A DNA stretch of 64,000 bases from contig CAWAUM010000004.1 of assembly GCA_963785235.1 (NCBI GenBank), positions 1 to 64,000 of the forward strand. Direction: 5' to 3'. The notes below the pieces were generated by a model. That model saw nothing but the letters and a program-made list of their open reading frames with translations, ran no database searches and was not told the origin of the DNA. The stretch comes from an uncultured delta proteobacterium (lineage in GTDB: Bacteria > Desulfobacterota > Desulfomonilia > UBA1062). Shown piece by piece: positions 46,419-55,180 of this stretch (position 1 is the first letter of the stretch; each line of letters starts with the position of its first letter). The position numbers were made by a program, and so were the translations under genes.

Positions 46419-47723
46419 CTAAAAGATATCTGCCAGCACACCCAGTGATTTTTCTATCATATCAGGTGTAAACGACAGAAGGTTCAGGCTGCCCTGGAAG
46501 GGAGCGGTGTCTATATGTTCTATCTCAAATCCCGGGAAAAATTTTTGGGCAATGGCATCTGCAATATAGACGAGGTGGACGAGGTCGGCATTCTTTACTG
46601 CCTTGTCCGGGCGGTGATGAAACAGGATCACATCTTTGATCACTTCCGGCAGCTTCCAACTTTCAGCAAGGTGGAGACCGGCAAGATTGTGGTCTATGCC
46701 GAATATCTTATGCTCAAGGATGCTTGAATCTTCTCTATTGGCACTCAGAATCCGATAAAAGAGTGGCTGAACCTTGGCCATGTACTGATCGAGCACGACC
46801 TTCCCGATATCATGGAGCAGCCCTGCCGTGTATGCAAGATCAGGCCTTATCTTGCCGTGGATGCGTGAGAGCTTCTCGCTGAGCCGGGCGGTTGCCAAGG
46901 CATGGTAAAACAGACCCCCACGCATTAACGAGTAACCCTTTTCAGAGCAACTTAAGAGCTTTTCCGCCTGAGCCGTGATGATCAGTTGGATCAGGGCCTT
47001 GCTGCCGATAATTGTTATGGCATCATCGATGGTCTCGATCTTCCTTTGTATCCCCATGTAAGAGGAGTTGCACAATTTGAGTACTTCTGCAGCCATCACC
47101 TGGTCTTTGCGAATTTCAGAGGCGATGGTGGCAATGTCGGTCATCTCGTCTGAGATCATGCTTGCAATGCCCAGTGCGATCTGGGGTACCGGCTGGAGGT
47201 CTTCGATGGTTTTGCCTATTTCAGCAAGGGCCGGCATAGTGGCAGGCTGGGTGATCTTGTTGCGAGTGTTCTGGAGCATGGGCTCTATGGTGCAGGCTGC
47301 CTTGTCCACATCCAGCATGATACAGAACCCTATTGTTCCGCTTGCCTCGAGCAATTTGATGGGGATACCGGTTTCTTTGAGAATTTTGAGCGTTATCTCC
47401 AGGGTTCTGCCGCCGATGTTAAGGGCGAGCTCCTGGTGAGAGCTGGGATCAACGAGTGCACCACCCGAGATATAGGCAGACAGGTTTTCTTTCAGGGCGC
47501 CTGCATTGTCCAGCGATTTAAGAAAAATCGGGATGCCTGTGCTTGCATAATAAGAGAGCTGGCTTTCAGGGATATCGCAAAGCGGCTCAGGCAGCAGGAT
47601 ATGTATCATGCCGCCGATGTGCCGTTTTGAATCGAGGATTGCCACACCGACACAAGACCCGAGATATGCCTTCATCTGGCCCGATCTGCTGATCTCTATG
47701 CCGCCGCTTGGTATGATGGTCAT
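46419..47723 (-). CDS. CheD-HDOD fusion protein
   Basis: LGSCVGV..GGMIHILLP CheD with catalytic C/H; DQVMAAEVLKLCNS and GLLHDIGK HDOD. Confidence 0.85.
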   Translation of the reverse strand: MTIIPSGGIEISRSGQMKAYLGSCVGVAILDSKRHIGGMIHILLPEPLCDIPESQLSYYASTGIPIFLKSLDNAGALKENLSAYISGGALVDPSSHQELALNIGGRTLEITLKILKETGIPIKLLEASGTIGFCIMLDVDKAACTIEPMLQNTRNKITQPATMPALAEIGKTIEDLQPVPQIALGIASMISDEMTDIATIASEIRKDQVMAAEVLKLCNSSYMGIQRKIETIDDAITIIGSKALIQLIITAQAEKLLSCSEKGYSLMRGGLFYHALATARLSEKLSRIHGKIRPDLAYTAGLLHDIGKVVLDQYMAKVQPLFYRILSANREDSSILEHKIFGIDHNLAGLHLAESWKLPEVIKDVILFHHRPDKAVKNADLVHLVYIADAIAQKFFPGFEIEHIDTAPFQGSLNLLSFTPDMIEKSLGVLADIF

Positions 47724-47853
47724 GTATACCCTGACTCCCTTTACCTTGAGGAGATAACGCACCAGGAGGTGCACTTTTCGTACTATCCTCTTAGATATAA
47801 TCGGTTATACTTTTCTGAAATATAAATGATTTACTGGTGCTTAAAGATGAGTT

Positions 47854-48864
47854 TTACGGCCATGAATAGAATCCGCCCTTATTCTCACCCCTTCTCCGGT
47901 ACACAACCACGGTCGGGGTCTTTGTATTTGAGAGGGATTCCATGGTTTTCATGGCATCTTCGTAGTACCCCACCTGGTCAATCAGTTTGAATTTCATGCC
48001 TGTTGATGCTGTCATGACCCGGCCATCAGCTATTACAGTAATATCTTCAGGTTTCACCGGTCTTATGGCCTTCACCTTTGCAATGAAATCCTGGCTGAAT
48101 TCCGTTACTATCCCTTCCAGGATGGCTTTATCGTCTTTGTTCATATCTCGCAGTATGGTACCCGAGTCCTTGAGTTTTCCAGAAGTCAGCGTCTGGTTCT
48201 TAATGCCGAGTTTGTCCATAAGGCCTTCCAGACTGATGGAAGGCAGGAGAACCCCAATATTGCCCACCACGGCGGAGGGCAATGCGACAATACGGTCAGC
48301 AGATAAAGCCACCATATAGGCGCCTGAGGTGCCCTGGCCGGTTATGCAGGCTACAATTGGGATCTTGCGGGTCTCCTTGAAGTCCTTGATCTCTCTGAAA
48401 ACCAGGTCTGAGGCTGTCACACCACCCCCTGGCGAATCGATCTTGAGAAGGATACCCTTGATGGCCTTGTCTTCTTTGGCCATTTCCAGGACACCATCGA
48501 TCCGTTCAAGGGTCCCCTGCCTGGTGGCTATAAAGCTGTCCCTCATGGCTGTTGTGGTGATCATGCCGAGCACCTCTATTACGAGGATCTTGTCTTTTGA
48601 GCCCTCTTTCAGAACCCGTTCTTCGAAAGGTTGAGTCTGCATAAGGCTTCCAAGATCGAACGAGATAAATGCACACCCATGGAGAACGAGTAATCCAAAA
48701 AAGACTGCAGCAATTCTAAAAATCTTTATCTTATTGAGACAATTGCATAACTCAGAAAAAGGTGTCACCCCCGCGAAGGCGGGGGTCCAGAAGTTCTTAA
48801 TAAGACAAGATTCCCGCTTCCGCGGGAAAGACATCCTTTGAAATTTACGATTAGTTCTATTCAT
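47854..48864 (-). CDS. sppA: signal peptide peptidase SppA (36K type lipoprotein) with an in-frame MITE in its N-terminus
   Basis: IDSPGG, SGAYMVA, GNIGV, SGKLKD, DGRV; lipobox LHGC. Confidence 0.9.
   Translation of the reverse strand: MNRTNRKFQRMSFPRKRESCLIKNFWTPAFAGVTPFSELCNCLNKIKIFRIAAVFFGLLVLHGCAFISFDLGSLMQTQPFEERVLKEGSKDKILVIEVLGMITTTAMRDSFIATRQGTLERIDGVLEMAKEDKAIKGILLKIDSPGGGVTASDLVFREIKDFKETRKIPIVACITGQGTSGAYMVALSADRIVALPSAVVGNIGVLLPSISLEGLMDKLGIKNQTLTSGKLKDSGTILRDMNKDDKAILEGIVTEFSQDFIAKVKAIRPVKPEDITVIADGRVMTASTGMKFKLIDQVGYYEDAMKTMESLSNTKTPTVVVYRRRGENKGGFYSWP
48736..48857. mobile_element. ~120-bp MITE with perfect 4-bp target duplication TATT, inside sppA
   Basis: TATT|GAGACAATTGCATAAC...TTACGATTAGTTC|TATT; 122+4=126 nt, in frame. 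Confidence 0.85.
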
Positions 48865-50308
48865 TGCGGATTTCACCTCCAACGGTAATCTCAGGAATCA
48901 GCAGGGTAGGTTGGGCATCGGCGATAGGCACCCCTTGTCCGTCTTTTCCGCACGTGCCGATTCCGAAACCAAGATCGTTACCCAGCAGCTCAATGGAATT
49001 GAGGATTTTAGGACCGTTCCCTATGAGCGTTGCCCCCCGGATGGGTTCGCCCACACAACCATTTTCAATGAGATAGCCTTCGGATACATTGAAGACGAAG
49101 TCGCCTGTCACCGTGTTTACCTGTCCACCGCCCATCTTTTTCACGAATATGCCGGCATGCACCTTCCTGATGATCTCTTCTGCGTTCAGGGGTCCCGGCT
49201 GGATGATCGTGTTGGTCATGCGCGGGATGGGCCTATGGCGGTAGGATTCACGCCTTGCATTGCCGGACAGTGGCAGGCCGAGTTTCTGAGCAGTGATGAG
49301 GTCGGTCATGAACCCCTTGAGGATGCCGTTCTCCACCAGGACAGTCCGGTTGGTGGGGCTCCCTTCATCATCACAGCCCATGGAGCCTCTTAAGCCTTTG
49401 ATGGTGCCGTCATCAATGACCGTGATGGCAGATGACGCAACCTGCATGCCCATCTTGCCGGAATAGACCGACAGGCCTTCACCGGCCAGATCGGCCTCCA
49501 GGCCGTGGCCGATGGCCTCGTGCACCATTGTACCGCCGGCATCACTGGAAAGAACTACCGGCATGGTACCGGCCGGTGCACGCCTGGCTTTGATGGTGTT
49601 CAATGCCCTGCAGATGGCCCTTTTGGCAATTTCATCAGGGGGGGTCTCTTTGAACAACTCGAATCCACGGGCTCCACCCATGGGTTCATAGCCCGTCTCC
49701 ATGAGCGAATCCCGGGCAACGATCCCCTGGACAACAAAAATAATGGTGTCCCGAGAGTCTTCTGCAATGAATCCTTTTGAGTTTGCAATGAAGACCCTGC
49801 GTGATCCATCGCCATACATGACTTTCACCTGCACTACGGAGCTGTCCATTCCCCATGCTACATCTTCCGCCTTTTGAACAAGCGCTATCTTTTCTTGGGG
49901 ATCTATCCTGACAGGATCGATATCCATGAGGACTGTTGAGGTCGAAGGCCTTTTCATGAGTGCGATGGCTCCGGAGAAACTTCCTGACTTGACTGCCGAG
50001 GCCACAGTATCGGCAAGATCATCAAGCGAAGAAGGATCATTCGTGTAGGCATACGCAGATCTTTCACCTATGACAACCCTCAGCGCTATCCCCGACTCTT
50101 CAGTGATAAGGAACTTTTCGATCTTGTGTGCCTCGCAGATTATGGATGTGCCTTTTTTCTGTTCAACATAGAGTTCTGCAAAATCACCGCCTTTGGCGAG
50201 AGATCGTTTGAGTAACCGCTCACAATCAATATCGCTGATCTTTATCACTTTCGCACAAGGAGACTCCGGCCAATCTACGGATTGGCCAAGAGATGAATTG
50301 TGTGTCAT
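48857..50308 (-). CDS. tldD: TldD metalloprotease; N-terminus now supplied by the IscB element (ATG 50308 or GTG 50248)
   Basis: GGDFAELYVE, HEAIGHGLEAD, DDEG, GNARRESY..PIPRMTNT, CGKDGQ. Confidence 0.9.
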   Translation of the reverse strand: MTHNSSLGQSVDWPESPCAKVIKISDIDCERLLKRSLAKGGDFAELYVEQKKGTSIICEAHKIEKFLITEESGIALRVVIGERSAYAYTNDPSSLDDLADTVASAVKSGSFSGAIALMKRPSTSTVLMDIDPVRIDPQEKIALVQKAEDVAWGMDSSVVQVKVMYGDGSRRVFIANSKGFIAEDSRDTIIFVVQGIVARDSLMETGYEPMGGARGFELFKETPPDEIAKRAICRALNTIKARRAPAGTMPVVLSSDAGGTMVHEAIGHGLEADLAGEGLSVYSGKMGMQVASSAITVIDDGTIKGLRGSMGCDDEGSPTNRTVLVENGILKGFMTDLITAQKLGLPLSGNARRESYRHRPIPRMTNTIIQPGPLNAEEIIRKVHAGIFVKKMGGGQVNTVTGDFVFNVSEGYLIENGCVGEPIRGATLIGNGPKILNSIELLGNDLGFGIGTCGKDGQGVPIADAQPTLLIPEITVGGEIRNE

Positions 50309-51939
50309 TCTATTCCTCCCATGAACCTGTATGGTGCAACCAGATCAGCCCTTACCGGTTTTGGCAACGTTCTGAGCTTGATATAAGCGCCAAGATTCTG
50401 CATACCGGCTACTGTATGTTTTTCACCATCGAGGATCACTATATCATTGGGCTGATAGGTATATCTTTGCTTTTTGATCCTCAGGTGACCCTTGGACAGC
50501 TTCTCTCCACGGTATTGTCTTAAGTTCTCTCCGTTCAGGTTTTTGTTTCTTGTCCTGCGGCCGCAATTAAGCTCACTGCCGGAAGCCTTTTCCCCTGTCC
50601 TGATATCTATGTACTGTGCATCATAGAACTTGCAGAAAGAACGGTTGTTGCGCCTTGACTGTTTGAAGGTGATCTGGGCCGTCCTCATCTGTGCCTCACC
50701 TCCCGCGATCACAAACGCGTCGTTAGCATGGGATTTCGGGATATCAAGTTCGATGCGCTTAGATTTGGTTACATGGCCGAAGGTGAGGCTTGTTTCAAAG
50801 CCTTTCGCCCTGAGCCTGTCAAGGAGCATCCACCTTACGATCGTCATAAAGGTCTTCTGCCGGAACGATTTGACTGCCGGCGTCCAGCCATACAGAAATC
50901 CCTTATCCTTGTGGTTCTCCGGCTTGTGGCACTTGTCGCAGAGAGTAATCAGATTTGCAGGCCTGTCGCTCCGGTCTTCCTTCCAATAACCGATATGATG
51001 TACCTGGAGGACCTTCTCATGCGCCTTGTTTCTGCAGTTCGGGTTCTGGCATTTGTGCCCGTCACGGTGCAGGATGTATTCGCGCAGGTTCCAGTAACCG
51101 GCCTGTTCGCCCTGTTGGTACTGCTTCCCCTCGATCTCGGGGTCCTTGATCTTCTGGATGTCGAATGCGGCAACTTCGACTATGACGGACGAGACGGGAA
51201 GGATTCTTCTGATCTTGTCAACCAGACCAAGCTGCGCATCCAGCTTGTTCTGTATGGACGGTGCTAGCCATCCTTCAGGCCTGCGCCGGTTGTCGAATCT
51301 GGGATCCCTGAATCTCAGCCGGCTTCTTCTCTGGCTCTGGTACTTGCGACATTCCTCAATCCTCGCGGACTGATCCTTAGGCAAAAGGAGTTCACCGGCG
51401 AGGAACTCTGCTTTTTCAGTGATCGTAGAGAAACCCGCTGTTTCGTATCCGGAATCCAGCCCCATTGTAATAGGTTGTACGGTTTCACCGGTAGCCCTCT
51501 TCAGCCTGATGGTAAAAGGTTTTGCCTTAACGACATATGCATTGCCCTCCCGGAGCAGTTTCCTCGCCTTGCGGGGAAAGCTCGGCATGAGAGGTTTCCC
51601 CTCCATATTTAAAACGCATACCCTGGTTTCCTTGACTTCCAACAAATCTCCTGTTGTTGACGGATACCCTCGGGTTCCGTCCTCCTTTCGGAGTTGGCCC
51701 ACATCGCCAATGTTTTGCAGGGTTTTTGCCCGGCTCACTTCGCCCTCCCGTGAGCGATGTTTAAAACCGATCCGCAGTGTCCAGGACTTGTGGAGCATCC
51801 CGGAGTGCCTATGTCATTCCCACAAAACGTAGCCCGGTGGGAACTTCCGTTCCCCTGGCTGAGGCTAATCAACCAAGCTCTCAAGGTTTTACCCCCTCAA
51901 GCCCCAAACCAATATTTTCATTGGTTGCGGGTAGTTGAC
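50246..51939 (-). mobile_element. non-autonomous IS200/IS605-superfamily IscB (OMEGA) element
   Basis: Left end GTCAACTACCC..GGGGCTTG, right end CAATTCATC..hairpin..CTTGTGCGAAAGTG. Removal restores the smpB stop and tldD start. No tnpA. Confidence 0.88.
50305..51642 (-). CDS. iscB: RNA-guided endonuclease IscB (PLMP, split RuvC, bridge helix, HNH)
   Basis: GKPLMP, RKARKLL, GLDSG (RuvC-I), RRSRLRFR..RFDNR, VEVAAFD (RuvC-II), VHHI..NLITLCDKCH (HNH), SHANDA (RuvC-III). TTG start after AGGAG is inferred. Confidence 0.92.
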   Translation of the reverse strand: MEVKETRVCVLNMEGKPLMPSFPRKARKLLREGNAYVVKAKPFTIRLKRATGETVQPITMGLDSGYETAGFSTITEKAEFLAGELLLPKDQSARIEECRKYQSQRRSRLRFRDPRFDNRRRPEGWLAPSIQNKLDAQLGLVDKIRRILPVSSVIVEVAAFDIQKIKDPEIEGKQYQQGEQAGYWNLREYILHRDGHKCQNPNCRNKAHEKVLQVHHIGYWKEDRSDRPANLITLCDKCHKPENHKDKGFLYGWTPAVKSFRQKTFMTIVRWMLLDRLRAKGFETSLTFGHVTKSKRIELDIPKSHANDAFVIAGGEAQMRTAQITFKQSRRNNRSFCKFYDAQYIDIRTGEKASGSELNCGRRTRNKNLNGENLRQYRGEKLSKGHLRIKKQRYTYQPNDIVILDGEKHTVAGMQNLGAYIKLRTLPKPVRADLVAPYRFMGGIE

Positions 51940-51955
51940 CTCCATGATTTCACCT
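51655..51955 (-). ncRNA. omegaRNA (HEARO-like): ~16-nt 5' guide from the smpB 3' end plus ~280-nt scaffold
   Basis: GTTGATTAGCCTCAG, CTACGTT, ATAGGCACTCCGGGATGCTCCACAAGTCC, TTAAACA, AACATTGGCGATGTGG and a terminal GACGGA..TCCGTC hairpin upstream of iscB. Confidence 0.82.
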
Positions 51956-52400
51956 CTCTTGCCGTATCGCGCCGGATATCACGTTCCTTGATGACATCTT
52001 TTTTGCTATGTGCCCGCCGCCCTTTGGCAAGACCCAACTCCACCTTGATGCGGTTGCCTTTTATATAGAGCCTTAACGGAACCAGGGTGAGCCCTTTTTC
52101 TTTAACCTTTCCGTTCAGTCTGAAGATTTCCCGTCTGTGTAAAAGAAGCTTTCTTGGGCATGTGGGATCATAATGAATATTCGATGCCTGGGCATACGGG
52201 CTTATATGGAAATTATTCAGAAAGACTTCATAGTTCCTGATCTGAGCATAGCCGTCCTTTATGTTTCCCCCACCGTTTCTGAGGGATTTCACCTCGGGGC
52301 CGCTCAGCACGATACCCGCCTCGATTGTCTCAAGTATCTCATATGAGTGCCTGGCTGTCTTATTGAGGCAAAGGTTTTTTTGGGCTTCAGGATCTTTCAT
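51918..52400 (-). CDS. smpB: SsrA-binding protein (last 6 aa from the IscB element)
   Basis: NKTARHSY, EAGIVLSGPEVKSLR, RKLLLHRREI, GLTLVPL. Confidence 0.95.
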   Translation of the reverse strand: MKDPEAQKNLCLNKTARHSYEILETIEAGIVLSGPEVKSLRNGGGNIKDGYAQIRNYEVFLNNFHISPYAQASNIHYDPTCPRKLLLHRREIFRLNGKVKEKGLTLVPLRLYIKGNRIKVELGLAKGRRAHSKKDVIKERDIRRDTAREVKSWRSTTRNQ

Positions 52401-52437
52401 GAATTAATGCCCCATTTTCAGTCTCATCAAAGGTATG

Positions 52438-54207
52438 TCAGGCAAGCTCAAATATATCGTGGGCATTTTCCATGATCTCTTTGCTCATGAACTCATAAAT
52501 TTCGGCAGCGGTTCTCATCTCAAAGATATGGCTCACAATGCCCTTGCACTTTTCAATGCTGAGTTTTCTGGCCATCTCTTTTATGTGAGAAATTGCAAAG
52601 GCATTCGTCGAGAGGGAATCAATGCCCATCCCCAACAGGATCGGGGTATAGATCTCGCGGCCGGCCATTTCGCCGCACATGGATACCGGAATACCGGCGT
52701 TGTGCGCCGCATCAACGGTGAATTGGATAAGGCGCAAGACACCTGGATGCAGGGGTTCGTACAGGTAGTTTACATACTCGTTGCCCCGGTCGATGGCGAT
52801 GGCATACTGTATGAGATCATTGGTGCCGAGACTGAAAAAATCCACCTCCTTTGCAAGGATATCCGCAATGACCGCTGCGGAGGGGACTTCGATCATAATG
52901 CCTACCCGGATATTCTCGTCAAAGGGGATGCCGTCTTTTTTCAAGGTCAGCTTGGTCTCTTCCAGGATATCCTTGGCCTTGGCCAGTTCCTCCATACCTG
53001 AAATCATGGGAAACATGATGGAGGTGTTGCCATAGTGACTGGCCCTGAGTAGGCCTCTCAGCTGTGTCTTGAAGATGTCTACTTCCTTGAGGCATAACCT
53101 GATGGCGCGCAACCCCATGACAGGGTTCCTCTCGTTGATCACCCTGCTCAGGCCGGCATAGAATTTGTCTCCGCCAAGATCCAAGGTGCGGATGACGGTG
53201 TTGAAGGGGGAGACCGTTTCCACAACCGTCTTGTATGCCTCGAAATGGTCCTCCTCCGTGGGGATCTCCTTGCGGATGAGATACAGGAATTCAGTCCGGT
53301 AGAGCCCGATCCCCTCGGCGCCGTGATCAAGGACTGTCTTAACCTCTTCCTTGAACTCGAGGTTGCCTTTGACCTTTATATACTTGCCATCCTTGGTGAT
53401 GGCGGGTTCCTTGGCCTTTTCCTTGAGTTTGAGCTCAAGGCTCAGATAGGACCTGGCCCTGTTCTCATATTCGTGTAATTGTGATTCAGAAGGGTTGACG
53501 ATAACAACCCCAGAGATGCCGTCGAGTATGAGATTGTCGCCGGGATTGATAAGAGACGAAACATTCTCAAGACCTACGACTGCAGGTATTTCAAGTGAGT
53601 GGGCGATGATGGCTGTGTGAGAGGTAAGGCCACCGACATCGGTTGCAAAACCAAGCACCTTGTTCTTGTTGAGCATGGCCGTATCTGCCGGTGAAAGGTC
53701 GTGCGCCACTATGATGCTGTTGTCAAGCAGGTGGAACCCGCTGGTTTGCCTGCCGATGAGGTTGCGCAGCAGACGTTCACTGACATAGGTCGTATCCGTT
53801 ACCCTGCTTTTGATGTACTCGTCATCGATGGCTTCAAAGGCCTGTTCAATCTCTTGAATGGCTATTTTCAAGGCCCACTCGGCATTGATGTAATCTTCGG
53901 TTATGAGTTGCTTTACCCGGTCTATGAGGGCCGGATCTTTCAGCATGAGCAGATGGGTTTCGAGGATAAGAGAATGCTCTTTAATTACATTATGTGTCTC
54001 AAGGGTGCGAATGGCCTCGCCGATCTGTTTCTGAGAGAGGACCATGGCATCATAGAAACGCTTGAGCTCGTCCTCGACACGGTCTTCCGAAACGCGCAGT
54101 TTGGGATACCGTTCAATTTTTTTCGTATCAATAATAACGGCCTGCCCGATGGCAATGCCGGCTGAGGCGGGAACACCGTGCAAGATATGGACCTGTTGCT
54201 GGGACAT
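52438..54207 (-). CDS. ptsI: PTS enzyme I
   Basis: GGLTSHTAI phospho-His, GIGLYRTEF, NPVMGLRAIR, FSLGTNDL, CGEMA. Confidence 0.95.
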   Translation of the reverse strand: MSQQQVHILHGVPASAGIAIGQAVIIDTKKIERYPKLRVSEDRVEDELKRFYDAMVLSQKQIGEAIRTLETHNVIKEHSLILETHLLMLKDPALIDRVKQLITEDYINAEWALKIAIQEIEQAFEAIDDEYIKSRVTDTTYVSERLLRNLIGRQTSGFHLLDNSIIVAHDLSPADTAMLNKNKVLGFATDVGGLTSHTAIIAHSLEIPAVVGLENVSSLINPGDNLILDGISGVVIVNPSESQLHEYENRARSYLSLELKLKEKAKEPAITKDGKYIKVKGNLEFKEEVKTVLDHGAEGIGLYRTEFLYLIRKEIPTEEDHFEAYKTVVETVSPFNTVIRTLDLGGDKFYAGLSRVINERNPVMGLRAIRLCLKEVDIFKTQLRGLLRASHYGNTSIMFPMISGMEELAKAKDILEETKLTLKKDGIPFDENIRVGIMIEVPSAAVIADILAKEVDFFSLGTNDLIQYAIAIDRGNEYVNYLYEPLHPGVLRLIQFTVDAAHNAGIPVSMCGEMAGREIYTPILLGMGIDSLSTNAFAISHIKEMARKLSIEKCKGIVSHIFEMRTAAEIYEFMSKEIMENAHDIFELA

Positions 54208-54473
54208 TACCGCTCTCCGAACCCGTCTTTCACCAGGGATACAAGGGAATTAATAGCGTCCTCTTCGTCTTTGCCATCAGAGCGGATGATGATCTTGGCC
54301 CCTTTCACTGCAGCAATAGTAAGCAGTTCCATAATGCTCTTTCCATTCACCTTCATGTGATCTTTTACCACCTCAATCTTTGAGGTGAACTGTGATGCCT
54401 GCTTGGAGAATAATGCGGCTGATCGGGCGTGCATACCAAGCTTATTCACAATAATGACATGCTCTTCTCTCAT
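54207..54473 (-). CDS. ptsH: HPr phosphocarrier
   Basis: NKLGMHAR (His15), NGKSIM (Ser46). Confidence 0.95.
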   Translation of the reverse strand: MREEHVIIVNKLGMHARSAALFSKQASQFTSKIEVVKDHMKVNGKSIMELLTIAAVKGAKIIIRSDGKDEEDAINSLVSLVKDGFGER

Positions 54474-55180
54474 CGTAGCATAGTCCATAACATGGATAGT
54501 GTAAATACTCCATATACTAACCAGAATATGTTCACGCGCAGTTTTATAAGGACTGTGCTTGTGACGAAAATGAAGAATCCTGCAGCAAAACCATGGTTGA
54601 TACCAATCCAGCCAGGGACCAGGCAGAGGATAACCCCGGCCAGAAAGGGGATAAGAAGGGAAACGTTTTTGGAAAAGTCAACGGAGAGCATGTGCCCCAA
54701 AGACAGCGCCCCTTGGGGGCCTTGCAGGTATCCCAAAAAAAAGCCCCAGGTCATCGTCCAGAGATGAATTGAATTGAAGAGAACAAGGGCGATGAATAAA
54801 CCCCAAAGCTGGTCCGCTATGGCCGATATCAGCAGTAAAAGAGCAAGGAGCGGTTTCAGGGTTGTCCAGAACAATGTGTCGCCTATGGCTGCAAGGGACC
54901 CGGTCAGCGAGGGCCTTATCTTTTCTATTAACTCTTCATCGCCTTTTTCATACAGGTGGAGAAAGACGCCGATTGCAGTTGGGGCCATATAGGGTTGCGT
55001 GTTGAAGAATGGAGTGTAGCGTTTAATGGCATCAGGTGTTTTTTCCGGGATGATGTGTTTAAGCCCTGGAAGTATTGCATGAGTGAACCCGATGTTCTGC
55101 ATACCTTTGAAATTCCAGGCAGCCTGGATAAACAAAGAATTCCACAGAATGGACAGGGCTACCCGTATCGGCATTTTCAC
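54470..55180 (-). CDS. PTS mannose-family EIID subunit (start uncertain)
   Basis: QAAWNFKGMQNIGF, FFNTQPY, GSLAAIGDTLFW. Confidence 0.85.
   Translation of the reverse strand: MKMPIRVALSILWNSLFIQAAWNFKGMQNIGFTHAILPGLKHIIPEKTPDAIKRYTPFFNTQPYMAPTAIGVFLHLYEKGDEELIEKIRPSLTGSLAAIGDTLFWTTLKPLLALLLLISAIADQLWGLFIALVLFNSIHLWTMTWGFFLGYLQGPQGALSLGHMLSVDFSKNVSLLIPFLAGVILCLVPGWIGINHGFAAGFFIFVTSTVLIKLRVNIFWLVYGVFTLSMLWTMLR

What the first reader, a model, noticed from the sequence alone, without database searches (positions are those of the whole stretch)
50241..51957. IscB-omegaRNA element with guide, TAM and exact ends readable from the sequence
Seen: on the minus strand the left junction is ...AGAGGTGAAATCATGGAG|GTCAACTACCC and the right junction is ...TTGTGCGAAAGTG|ATAAAGATC, with a one-G ambiguity. 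Between them lie an omegaRNA scaffold and an IscB with all RuvC (D, E, D) and HNH catalytic residues. Established: IscB omegaRNAs take their 5' guide from the flank outside the left end and cut the empty site next to a 3' TAM; ATAAA is the TAM described for KraIscB-1. Inference: the guide is about AGGTGAAATCATGGAG and the TAM is ATAAA. The target would be the element-free smpB/tldD junction, so excised alleles are cut in a core locus. The guide probably arises by read-through from the ptsH-ptsI-smpB transcript, and the occupied allele is immune because the protospacer is followed by GTCAA.
Basis: partly seen in the sequence, partly recalled or inferred. Interest (0 to 1): 0.88.

Follow-up and report, generated by a model that had tools for sequence, protein, structure and literature searches.

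The report
IscB guide-RNA transposon between smpB and tldD
A 1.7-kb selfish DNA element that carries an RNA-guided DNA cutter (IscB, an ancestor of Cas9) sits exactly between two housekeeping genes, and its ends, guide and target motif can be read from the sequence; it is a clean but ordinary example of a known kind.

Summary
Window 50246-51939 (minus strand, 1694 bp) is an insertion. In related genomes the two flanks abut with nothing between them. The two closest congeners read ...AGGTGAAATCATGGAG|ATAAAG.... The insert starts with a full-length HEARO/omegaRNA match (RF02033, 118.7 bits against a gathering score of 83, first base 51939). It encodes a 445-aa IscB (NCBIfam guided_IscB 322.7 bits against a cut-off of 175; Pfam RRXRR and HNH). 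The RuvC and HNH residues are intact. In 12 distinct insertion sites of related elements the far end is followed by ATAAA, while the guide-side flank differs each time. ATAAA is the published TAM of K. racemifer IscB-1 and the optimal TAM of OrufIscB. The element has no tnpA. The 93%-complete genome shows no IS200-type TnpA, no TnpB and no second copy. None of 40 relatives has this IscB. I read it as a recently acquired, non-autonomous IS200/IS605-family IscB element. Cleavage, guide production by read-through and present mobility are inferred, not shown. It is a new member of a known kind, of modest interest.

The parts
50241..50245 (-). TAM / TnpA target motif: ATAAA on the minus strand (TTTAT on the plus strand). 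It lies outside the element, next to its iscB-distal end.
   Evidence: It is present in the empty alleles of relatives. ATAAA follows the distal end in 15 of 15 aligned elements, which represent 12 distinct sites. The TAM of K. racemifer IscB-1 and the optimal TAM of OrufIscB is ATAAA.
50246..51939 (-). The whole inserted element, 1694 bp, non-autonomous (omegaRNA plus iscB, no tnpA).
   Evidence: The flanks abut in relatives. Contigs of run X2 skip exactly 1694 bases, 50245 to 51940. It is a single copy in its own genome.
50268..50287 (+). Subterminal hairpin of the iscB-distal end (left-end type): GGCCAATC-TACG-GATTGGCC, 22 nt inside the boundary.
   Evidence: DNA fold of 50241-50320 on the plus strand: -13.4 kcal/mol, z = -3.71, 0 of 200 shuffles as good. 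Related elements have a hairpin of different sequence at the same place.
50305..51642 (-). iscB coding sequence, 445 aa. The start is probably TTG 51642 or 51645, behind a GGAG; the first ATG at 51606 would cut off the conserved N-terminal strand. Residues D63, E156, H215/H216 and H305..D308, plus the zinc cysteines C198, C203, C235 and C238.
   Evidence: Pfam RRXRR 3.4e-53 and HNH 4.6e-07. NCBIfam guided_IscB 322.7 bits against a cut-off of 175, matching from residue 8. PDB IscB chains at 7.1e-35 with the catalytic columns aligned. Residue numbers.
51693..51939 (-). omegaRNA scaffold (HEARO RNA). Its first base is the element's first base.
   Evidence: RF02033, 118.7 bits against a gathering score of 83, E = 3.4e-25, model positions 1-211 of 211.
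51907..51926 (+). Subterminal hairpin of the omegaRNA-proximal end (right-end type), followed by the terminal motif TTGAC| (GTCAA on the minus strand).
   Evidence: DNA fold of 51870-51945 on the plus strand: -8.8 kcal/mol, z = -2.01, 3 of 200 shuffles as good. This is weaker than at the other end.
51940..51955 (-). Predicted 16-nt guide / protospacer AGGTGAAATCATGGAG. It is the last codons of smpB and also tldD's own Shine-Dalgarno sequence plus ATG GAG.
   Evidence: It lies directly 5' of the omegaRNA scaffold. The same 16 nt plus ATAAAG are found in L003 and L004. The length is inferred from published IscB guide lengths of 13-16 nt.
51918..52400 (-). smpB. Its native stop (the TAA formed across the junction) is lost. 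The reading frame runs 22 nt into the element and adds 6 residues (STTRNQ).
   Evidence: Pfam SmpB 1.2e-53. Translations of the window and of L003/L004.
48857..50308 (-). tldD/pmbA-family gene. Its native start ATG GAG is now 1694 bp upstream. An in-frame ATG at 50308 overlaps the iscB stop (ATGA), lies behind GGGAGGA, and gives a new 21-residue N-terminus. A GTG formed by the element's last three bases is an alternative start.
   Evidence: The three PmbA_TldD domains are intact. Translations. Which start is used is inferred.

Best explanation
This is a non-autonomous IS200/IS605-family insertion sequence made of an omegaRNA (HEARO) gene and an intact iscB gene.

How it arrived (inferred): a Y1 transposase acting in trans inserted it, without target duplication, directly 3' of the plus-strand motif TTTAT. 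That spot is where the smpB stop and the tldD start overlap.

How it should work, by the established IscB model:
- Transcription entering from smpB yields an omegaRNA whose 5' 13-16 nt (AGGTGAAATCATGGAG) come from the flank.
- IscB loaded with this RNA recognises the same sequence when it is followed by ATAAA. That means the element-free smpB/tldD junction, which it cuts with its RuvC and HNH domains.
- The occupied allele escapes because GTCAA follows the protospacer there.
- A cut empty allele would be repaired from an occupied copy, which restores the element.

Shown here: the anatomy, the exact ends, the empty allele, conservation of the motif, intact catalytic residues.

Inferred: transcription, processing, cleavage and any present-day excision. 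With no IS200-type TnpA found in this genome, the element is probably immobile here for now.
For: - Empty alleles with abutting flanks in relatives. The guide and ATAAAG are identical in L003 and L004.
- Full-length HEARO hit starting at the first base of the insert.
- IscB equivalog model at 322.7 bits against a cut-off of 175, with Pfam RRXRR and HNH.
- Catalytic D, E, HH and H..D align with IscB chains of solved structures (numbers). The D58/H209/H210 mutant of GstIscB is inactive.
- ATAAA follows the distal end in 15 of 15 aligned related elements, 12 distinct sites. The guide-side flank differs at every distinct site.
- Subterminal hairpins at both ends.
- The closest relatives, L030 and L031, carry an IS200/IS605 tnpA right after iscB (NF033573, 158.8 bits).
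- Published TAM ATAAA for K. racemifer IscB-1 and OrufIscB.
- Published donor-joint targeting model and orientation bias.
- In 12 of 13 related insertions the longest upstream open frame lies on iscB's strand.
- No guide+TAM target remains in the genome.
Against: - There is no expression or cleavage data; no RNA run is listed for this organism.
- No IS200-type TnpA turned up in the 93%-complete assembly. The two Y1 hits are REP-associated-type: 72.8 and 85.9 bits on NF047646 and nothing on NF033573. There is also no TnpB. The excision that would create a target is therefore not expected now.
- The ATAAA conservation in relatives cannot by itself tell a flanking motif from a terminal one. Only this window's empty alleles show that ATAAA lies outside the element.
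- The iscB start codon is uncertain.
- smpB translation now ends 22 nt inside the omegaRNA. This might interfere with its folding if the RNA is cut out of the mRNA.
- The right-end hairpin is only weakly better than shuffles (z = -2.0).
Confidence: 0.85

Rival explanations
1. Stranded passenger. The element is structurally intact, but in this lineage it has no transposase and no target, so IscB and the omegaRNA do nothing. It persists because it arrived recently. A clean loss would also need a precise deletion to rebuild the smpB stop and the tldD start.
For: - It is a single copy.
- No IS200-type TnpA or TnpB was found in the genome.
- No target remains in the genome.
- IscB was found in 0 of 40 relatives.
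- tldD now depends on a start supplied by the element.
Against: The open frame is intact, all catalytic residues are kept, and the omegaRNA scores above the gathering threshold. There is no sign of decay, although a recent arrival would look the same. The assembly is 93% complete, so a TnpA may simply be unassembled.
Confidence: 0.3
2. Homing between strains without a transposase. When occupied and empty alleles of related strains meet in one cell after DNA uptake or transfer, IscB cuts the empty allele. Repair then copies the element together with short flanks. The element would spread through the population as a homing endonuclease gene does.
For: - The guide and TAM match the empty alleles of two congeneric species exactly.
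- Run X1 holds an occupied allele whose smpB differs at 7 third-codon positions between 52032 and 52224. From 51691 to 52031 it has no difference, across about 1311 nt of the element it has 2, and across 825 nt of tldD it has none. That is a mosaic of the kind co-conversion would leave.
- Cutting of sister chromosomes that lack the element is part of the published model.
Against: Ordinary homologous recombination, or contigs that mix strains, give the same mosaic. Only one run at depth about 5 is involved. Nothing shows that these strains exchange DNA.
Confidence: 0.12
3. The guide does not come from read-through of smpB. It comes from a start site close to the element, or the omegaRNA is made without a usable guide.
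For: Nothing here shows the transcript. A weak promoter-like site lies before smpB (52441-52414, minus strand), and the count of promoter-like sites is no higher than in shuffles (7 against 4.8 +/- 1.8).
Against: No promoter-like site lies on the minus strand between 52400 and 51940, and no terminator-like site lies between smpB and the omegaRNA. The upstream flank differs in every related insertion, so the element cannot carry its own upstream promoter. The orientation bias fits read-through.
Confidence: 0.1

Closest known systems
KraIscB-1 (Ktedonobacter racemifer IscB-1, OMEGA system; Altae-Tran et al. 2021, seen only through the commentary PMC11610941 and citations)
   Same: An IscB with RuvC and HNH domains, an upstream omegaRNA with a 5' guide, and a 3' ATAAA TAM.
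   Different: That system was expressed and assayed; this one was not. I could not compare the two sequences, because no KraIscB-1 sequence was available to me. The commentary describes the Kra locus as including a CRISPR array. Here the guide is plain flanking DNA.
GstIscB / ISGst elements of Geobacillus stearothermophilus (Meers et al., bioRxiv 10.1101/2023.03.14.532601, passages read)
   Same: A non-autonomous IS605-family element in which the omegaRNA is bounded by the right end. The guide equals the right-end flank. The TAM equals the left-end-adjacent motif that TnpA also uses. The terminal motif at the omegaRNA end differs from the TAM at two positions (here TTGAC against TTTAT). The element has the same orientation as the upstream gene.
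   Different: - The Gst TAM is TTCAT in left-end orientation; here it is TTTAT.
- Gst elements are multi-copy with an active TnpA in the genome. Here there is one copy and no IS200-type TnpA was found.
OgeuIscB and OrufIscB (solved structures 7xht, 7utn, 9nvu and others)
   Same: The domain order and catalytic columns align (E = 2e-33 to 7e-35 for the Ogeu-type chains). The optimal TAM of OrufIscB is ATAAA.
   Different: This protein is shorter (445 aa against 492-496 aa). The alignment covers two stretches only (residues 8-120 and 108-315). The C-terminal TAM-reading part (about 316-445) was not aligned to a structure here.
The closest natural relatives found: elements in Syntrophomonas and Thermincola MAGs (L030-L032) and metagenome contigs L034-L049
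   Same: 61-63% (L030-L034) and 53-59% protein identity. They share the GTCAAC start of the omegaRNA, a homologous distal end (CAATTCATC, hairpin, GAGTCT..TG) and ATAAA beyond it.
   Different: L030 and L031 carry tnpA and are autonomous. L037-L049 are multi-copy within single contigs. The window's copy is alone in a lineage where no relative has the gene.

Membership tests
IscB (OMEGA RNA-guided endonuclease) | N-terminal PLMP/RRXRR region and a split RuvC with an inserted HNH domain | tested here: met
   Pfam RRXRR 3.4e-53 (residues 8-178) and HNH 4.6e-07 (residues 198-244). NCBIfam guided_IscB equivalog, 322.7 bits against a cut-off of 175.
IscB (OMEGA RNA-guided endonuclease) | Catalytic residues: RuvC D, E and H..D, and the HNH histidine | tested here: met
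   D63, E156, H215/H216 and H305/D308 align with the matching columns of the IscB chains 11hr_A and 11hx_A (numbers). That these columns are catalytic rests on the GstIscB D58A/H209A/H210A mutant and on recalled OgeuIscB numbering (D61, E193, H247).
IscB (OMEGA RNA-guided endonuclease) | A cognate omegaRNA (HEARO) directly upstream on the same strand | tested here: met
   RF02033, 118.7 bits against 83, full length, ending 50 nt before the proposed iscB start.
IscB (OMEGA RNA-guided endonuclease) | RNA-guided, TAM-dependent cleavage of double-stranded DNA | not testable with these tools
   This needs a cleavage or plasmid-interference assay.
IS200/IS605-family insertion sequence (non-autonomous) | Insertion without target-site duplication, directly 3' of a conserved short motif next to one end | tested here: met
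   Empty alleles read ...GGAG|ATAAAG with no duplicated bases beyond a one-base ambiguity. ATAAA is found at 12 distinct sites of related elements.
IS200/IS605-family insertion sequence (non-autonomous) | Subterminal imperfect hairpins at both ends rather than terminal inverted repeats | tested here: met
   left-end side z = -3.71; right-end side z = -2.01 (weak). Relative L037 has hairpins at the same places.
IS200/IS605-family insertion sequence (non-autonomous) | Mobilised by a Y1 (HUH) TnpA, in cis or in trans | tested here: inconclusive
   The element holds none. The genome's two PF01797 hits are REP-associated-type and give nothing on NF033573. The assembly is 93% complete. The closest relatives L030 and L031 have an adjacent IS200/IS605 tnpA.

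The most novel reading that the evidence does not exclude
The element spreads, or is kept, in this bacterial population without any transposase. IscB, guided by the smpB/tldD junction, cuts element-free alleles of related strains when they meet an occupied allele, and repair copies the element in. That is homing at a core-gene junction. At the same time the element has made itself hard to lose, because it now supplies the smpB stop and couples tldD translation to iscB.
Probability: 0.12. Interest if true: 0.6.

Novelty: new member of a known kind. Interest (0 to 1): 0.3.

Why it matters
It is a tidy natural example. Every part that the IscB model predicts can be read from one occupied allele and its empty counterparts in sister species: guide, TAM, both ends, and the self-protecting end motif. 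That makes it a convenient candidate for a compact nuclease with an ATAAA TAM, and a test case for how omegaRNA guides are produced from a host transcript.

It also shows how such an insertion can sit between two overlapping core genes without destroying them. SmpB gains six residues. tldD receives a new start codon that overlaps the iscB stop.

None of this changes what is known about IscB systems.

Tried and rejected
- RNA evidence: the look-up of sequencing runs listed no RNA holder, so expression and the RNA's 5' end could not be examined.

- Reads. X2 gave a joint that skips exactly 1694 bases in 2 contigs, but with only 22 letters on the shorter side and about 9% divergence. I take it as a relative's empty allele, not as excision in this strain. 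In X1 only the omegaRNA-side junction is bridged by a contig with more than 31 letters on both sides (record 6). Record 2 has 7 letters beyond the other junction.

- Promoter and terminator scan: counts are no higher than in shuffles, so it decides nothing.

- Composition: the element does not stand out (GC about 0.47-0.56 against about 0.43-0.60 around it), so it gives no evidence on foreign origin.

- Artefact or chance: rejected, given the exact abutment of flanks in relatives and the full-length covariance-model hit.

- CRISPR-Cas9 or a free-standing HNH endonuclease: rejected, given the guided_IscB equivalog hit and the HEARO RNA.

I therefore make no claim of transfer between phyla. I state only that the nearest IscBs found (53-63% identical) lie in Clostridia MAGs, and at up to 57% and 53% on Clostridium plasmids and phages.

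- Rows dropped before the distal-end count:
  - L030 and L031, because tnpA follows iscB. Their end was read by eye, where ATAAAC lies 4 nt after GTGCGA-TTAT; this is tentative.
  - L032, L048 and L051, because the contig ends.
  - L033 and L050, which are distant (44% and 39%).
  - L036, whose end could not be aligned and which gave no HEARO hit.

- HEARO hits: 3 of 4 genome loci and 14 of 18 metagenome loci. The misses are L031, L044 and L046 (contig starts inside or at iscB), L036 and L050.

- Orientation count: it used 13 loci, one per distinct upstream flank. L035 was left out (38 nt upstream), as were the duplicates L032, L045 and L048. Open frames were stop-to-stop and not verified as genes.

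Altae-Tran 2021 is not held. Supplementary files of papers were not opened; those of Meers et al. and Altae-Tran et al. may list TAMs and boundaries of close relatives.

- Not run: structure prediction, complex prediction, protein atlas and the large protein searches. The family assignment was already clear.


Full report
**What is there.** All positions below are read on the minus strand. The window carries ptsH (54207-54488; PTS-HPr 1.6e-24), ptsI (52438-54207; PEP-utilizers_C 1.9e-105) and smpB (51918-52400; SmpB 1.2e-53). A stretch of about 1.7 kb follows, and then a tldD/pmbA-family gene (48857-50308; three PmbA_TldD domains).

**It is an insertion with exact ends.**
- I searched 41 genomes (the window's own and 40 relatives) with the smpB DNA. 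23 of them matched.
- BLAST with the 200 nt on each side of the presumed insert against the 23 loci from relatives matched the left flank in 21 and the right flank in 13.
- In L003, L004, L005, L006, L009 and L011 the two alignments abut base to base. In L007, L008, L010 and L012 they are collinear with no room for an insert.
- The two closest genomes are G011 (L003, 93% identical in smpB) and G002 (L004, 90%). Both read ...AGAGAGGTGAAATCATGGAG directly followed by ATAAAGATCAG.
- L005 and L006 have one mismatch in the 16 nt, and also ATAAAG. More distant relatives drift to ATAAG, ATGA and other motifs.
- The insert is therefore 50246-51939, 1694 bp.
- The one-base (G) ambiguity is real ('both = 1'). 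The family resolves it. In 17 related loci the base before the omegaRNA start varies, while GTC is constant (GTCAAC in 15 of 17). The HEARO model begins at that G.

**Contents of the insert.**
- cmscan gives a full-length HEARO match (RF02033) at 51939-51693: 118.7 bits against a gathering score of 83, E = 3.4e-25, model positions 1-211 of 211 (the same in the whole-genome search).
- The open frame behind it encodes an IscB. Pfam gives RRXRR 3.4e-53 and HNH 4.6e-07. NCBIfam gives the guided_IscB equivalog at 322.7 bits against a cut-off of 175, matching from residue 8.
- I place the start at TTG 51642 (or 51645), 5-8 nt behind GGAG. The first ATG (51606) would remove the conserved strand VCVLN that the family models include. 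This placement is an inference.
- phmmer against PDB sequences finds 9 chains at E <= 0.001: 7 IscBs, an IsrB fusion and an OrufIscB chimera (best 7.1e-35). The alignment puts D63, E156, H215/H216 and H305..D308 in the columns of the RuvC and HNH residues. GstIscB loses activity as D58A/H209A/H210A (passage).

**The ends.**
- On the plus strand, the iscB-distal end has an 8-bp hairpin (50268-50287) 22 nt inside the boundary. The fold has z = -3.71, and 0 of 200 shuffles do as well.
- The omegaRNA-proximal end has a 7-bp hairpin (51907-51926) followed by ...GTAGTTGAC|. The fold has z = -2.01, and 3 of 200 shuffles do as well.
- There are no terminal inverted repeats and no target duplication. 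This is the IS200/IS605 design.
- In the nomenclature of Meers et al. the omegaRNA lies at the right end and the TAM abuts the left end.

**The TAM.**
- Related elements came from genome contigs (4 loci, 44-62% protein identity) and metagenome contigs (18 loci, 39-63%).
- I aligned the region after the iscB stop for the window and 14 loci. All 15 share a homologous end (CAATTCATC, hairpin, GAGTCT..TG or ..TTA). All 15 have ATAAA next. After that they are unrelated.
- They represent 12 distinct sites, because L038/L046, L042/L044 and L045/L049 share flanks.
- The sixth position varies (A, G or T).
- On the other side, the 30 nt before GTCAAC are unrelated at each distinct site.
- In the relatives alone ATAAA could be counted as the element's last bases. 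The window's empty alleles show that it belongs to the target.
- ATAAA is the 3' TAM reported for K. racemifer IscB-1 (commentary PMC11610941, passage) and the optimal TAM of OrufIscB (PMC13180657, passages).
- Published effective guide lengths for IscB are 13-16 nt.

**Self and non-self.** I searched the genome for guide+ATAAA with up to 3 mismatches. The only hit is the occupied site itself, where GTCAA replaces ATAAA (2 mismatches). In left-end orientation the terminal motif TTGAC differs from TTTAT at two positions. Meers et al. describe the same relation for their elements, and they show that single-base TAM changes stop GstIscB.

**Mobility and origin.**
- The element has no tnpA.
- The genome (13 contigs, 93% complete) has one IscB, one HEARO and one copy of the element. 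It has no TnpB-type domain.
- It has two Y1 hits. Both match only the REP-associated tyrosine transposase model (72.8 and 85.9 bits, cut-off 80) and give nothing on the IS200 model. The tnpA next to iscB in L030 scores 158.8 bits on the IS200 model.
- The IscB was found in 0 of 40 relatives (14 of the same genus, 10 of the same family, 16 of the same class).
- The nearest proteins are 61-63% identical, in Syntrophomonas and Thermincola MAGs and one metagenome contig. The best plasmid hit is 57% and the best phage hit 53%, both in Clostridium.
- The insertion is younger than the split from the 93%-identical sister species. A run with a slightly different strain (X1) also has it.

**Effects on the host genes.**
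- In the empty allele smpB ends ...KSWR-TAA. That stop overlaps the tldD start: ATGGAGATAA, with tldD reading MEIKISD...
- The 16-nt guide is thus tldD's own ribosome-binding site plus its first two codons.
- In the occupied allele SmpB runs 22 nt into the omegaRNA and gains STTRNQ.
- tldD has lost its start. An in-frame ATG at 50308 overlaps the iscB stop (ATGA), six bases behind GGGAGGA, and gives a new 21-residue N-terminus. A GTG made of the element's last three bases is the alternative.
- Which start is used is not known.

**How the guide is made.**
- smpB and iscB have the same orientation.
- The minus strand has no promoter-like site between 52400 and 51940 and no terminator-like site between smpB and the omegaRNA. 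The scan as a whole is no better than shuffles.
- In 12 of 13 related insertions the longest open frame just upstream lies on iscB's strand, and several of these frames run into the omegaRNA as smpB does here (a crude count).
- Meers et al. report the same orientation bias.
- Read-through is therefore the likeliest source, but no RNA data exist.

**Verdict.** What remains inferred is activity: transcription and processing of the omegaRNA, cleavage, and any excision in a genome without a recognisable TnpA. The design is the known one (Altae-Tran 2021 as reported; Meers et al.). This is a new member of a known kind, and a neat one because occupied and empty alleles are both at hand.

The boldest reading still open is transposase-free homing between strains. 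Its only hint is a mosaic in run X1, where the element and its near flanks are almost identical to the window while smpB further upstream differs at 7 synonymous positions. Ordinary recombination explains that equally well.

Noticed in passing
window 49400-52800 against run X1: The X1 contigs carry the occupied allele. They differ from the window at 7 third-codon positions of smpB (52032-52224). There is no difference from 51691 to 52031, there are 2 in about 1311 nt of the element, and there are none in 825 nt of tldD. This is a mosaic identity block of at least 2.6 kb around the element.
   Followed up: partly
window 51883-51945, minus strand: The orphaned tldD start (ATG GAG) now opens a short frame of 18 codons that runs into the omegaRNA scaffold. 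The smpB stop also lies 22 nt inside the scaffold. Ribosomes therefore enter the 5' part of the RNA.
   Followed up: no
L030 1-6299 (Syntrophomonas MAG contig): The closest autonomous relative has the order omegaRNA, iscB, tnpA. It sits among genes that look phage-like by eye (an antirepressor-like frame, a RusA-like frame, a DNA ligase). I did not run family searches on them.
   Followed up: no
L037/L041, L038/L049, L045/L046 (pairs on single metagenome contigs): The 53-54%-identical clade occurs as two copies on each of three contigs (two of 59-63 kb, one of 46 kb). All copies lack tnpA and all have ATAAA at the distal end. This is a multi-copy non-autonomous family.
   Followed up: partly
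G000:C11:76085-76612 (L026 1471-1998) and G000:C1:221996-222721 (L027 1159-1884): There are two REP-associated-type tyrosine transposase genes (175 and 241 aa) in the genome. I did not look for REP repeats around them.
   Followed up: no
window 46419-47774, minus strand: A single open frame joins a CheD domain to HDOD and HD domains (Pfam 9.9e-13, 2.2e-45, 1.2e-11).
   Followed up: no
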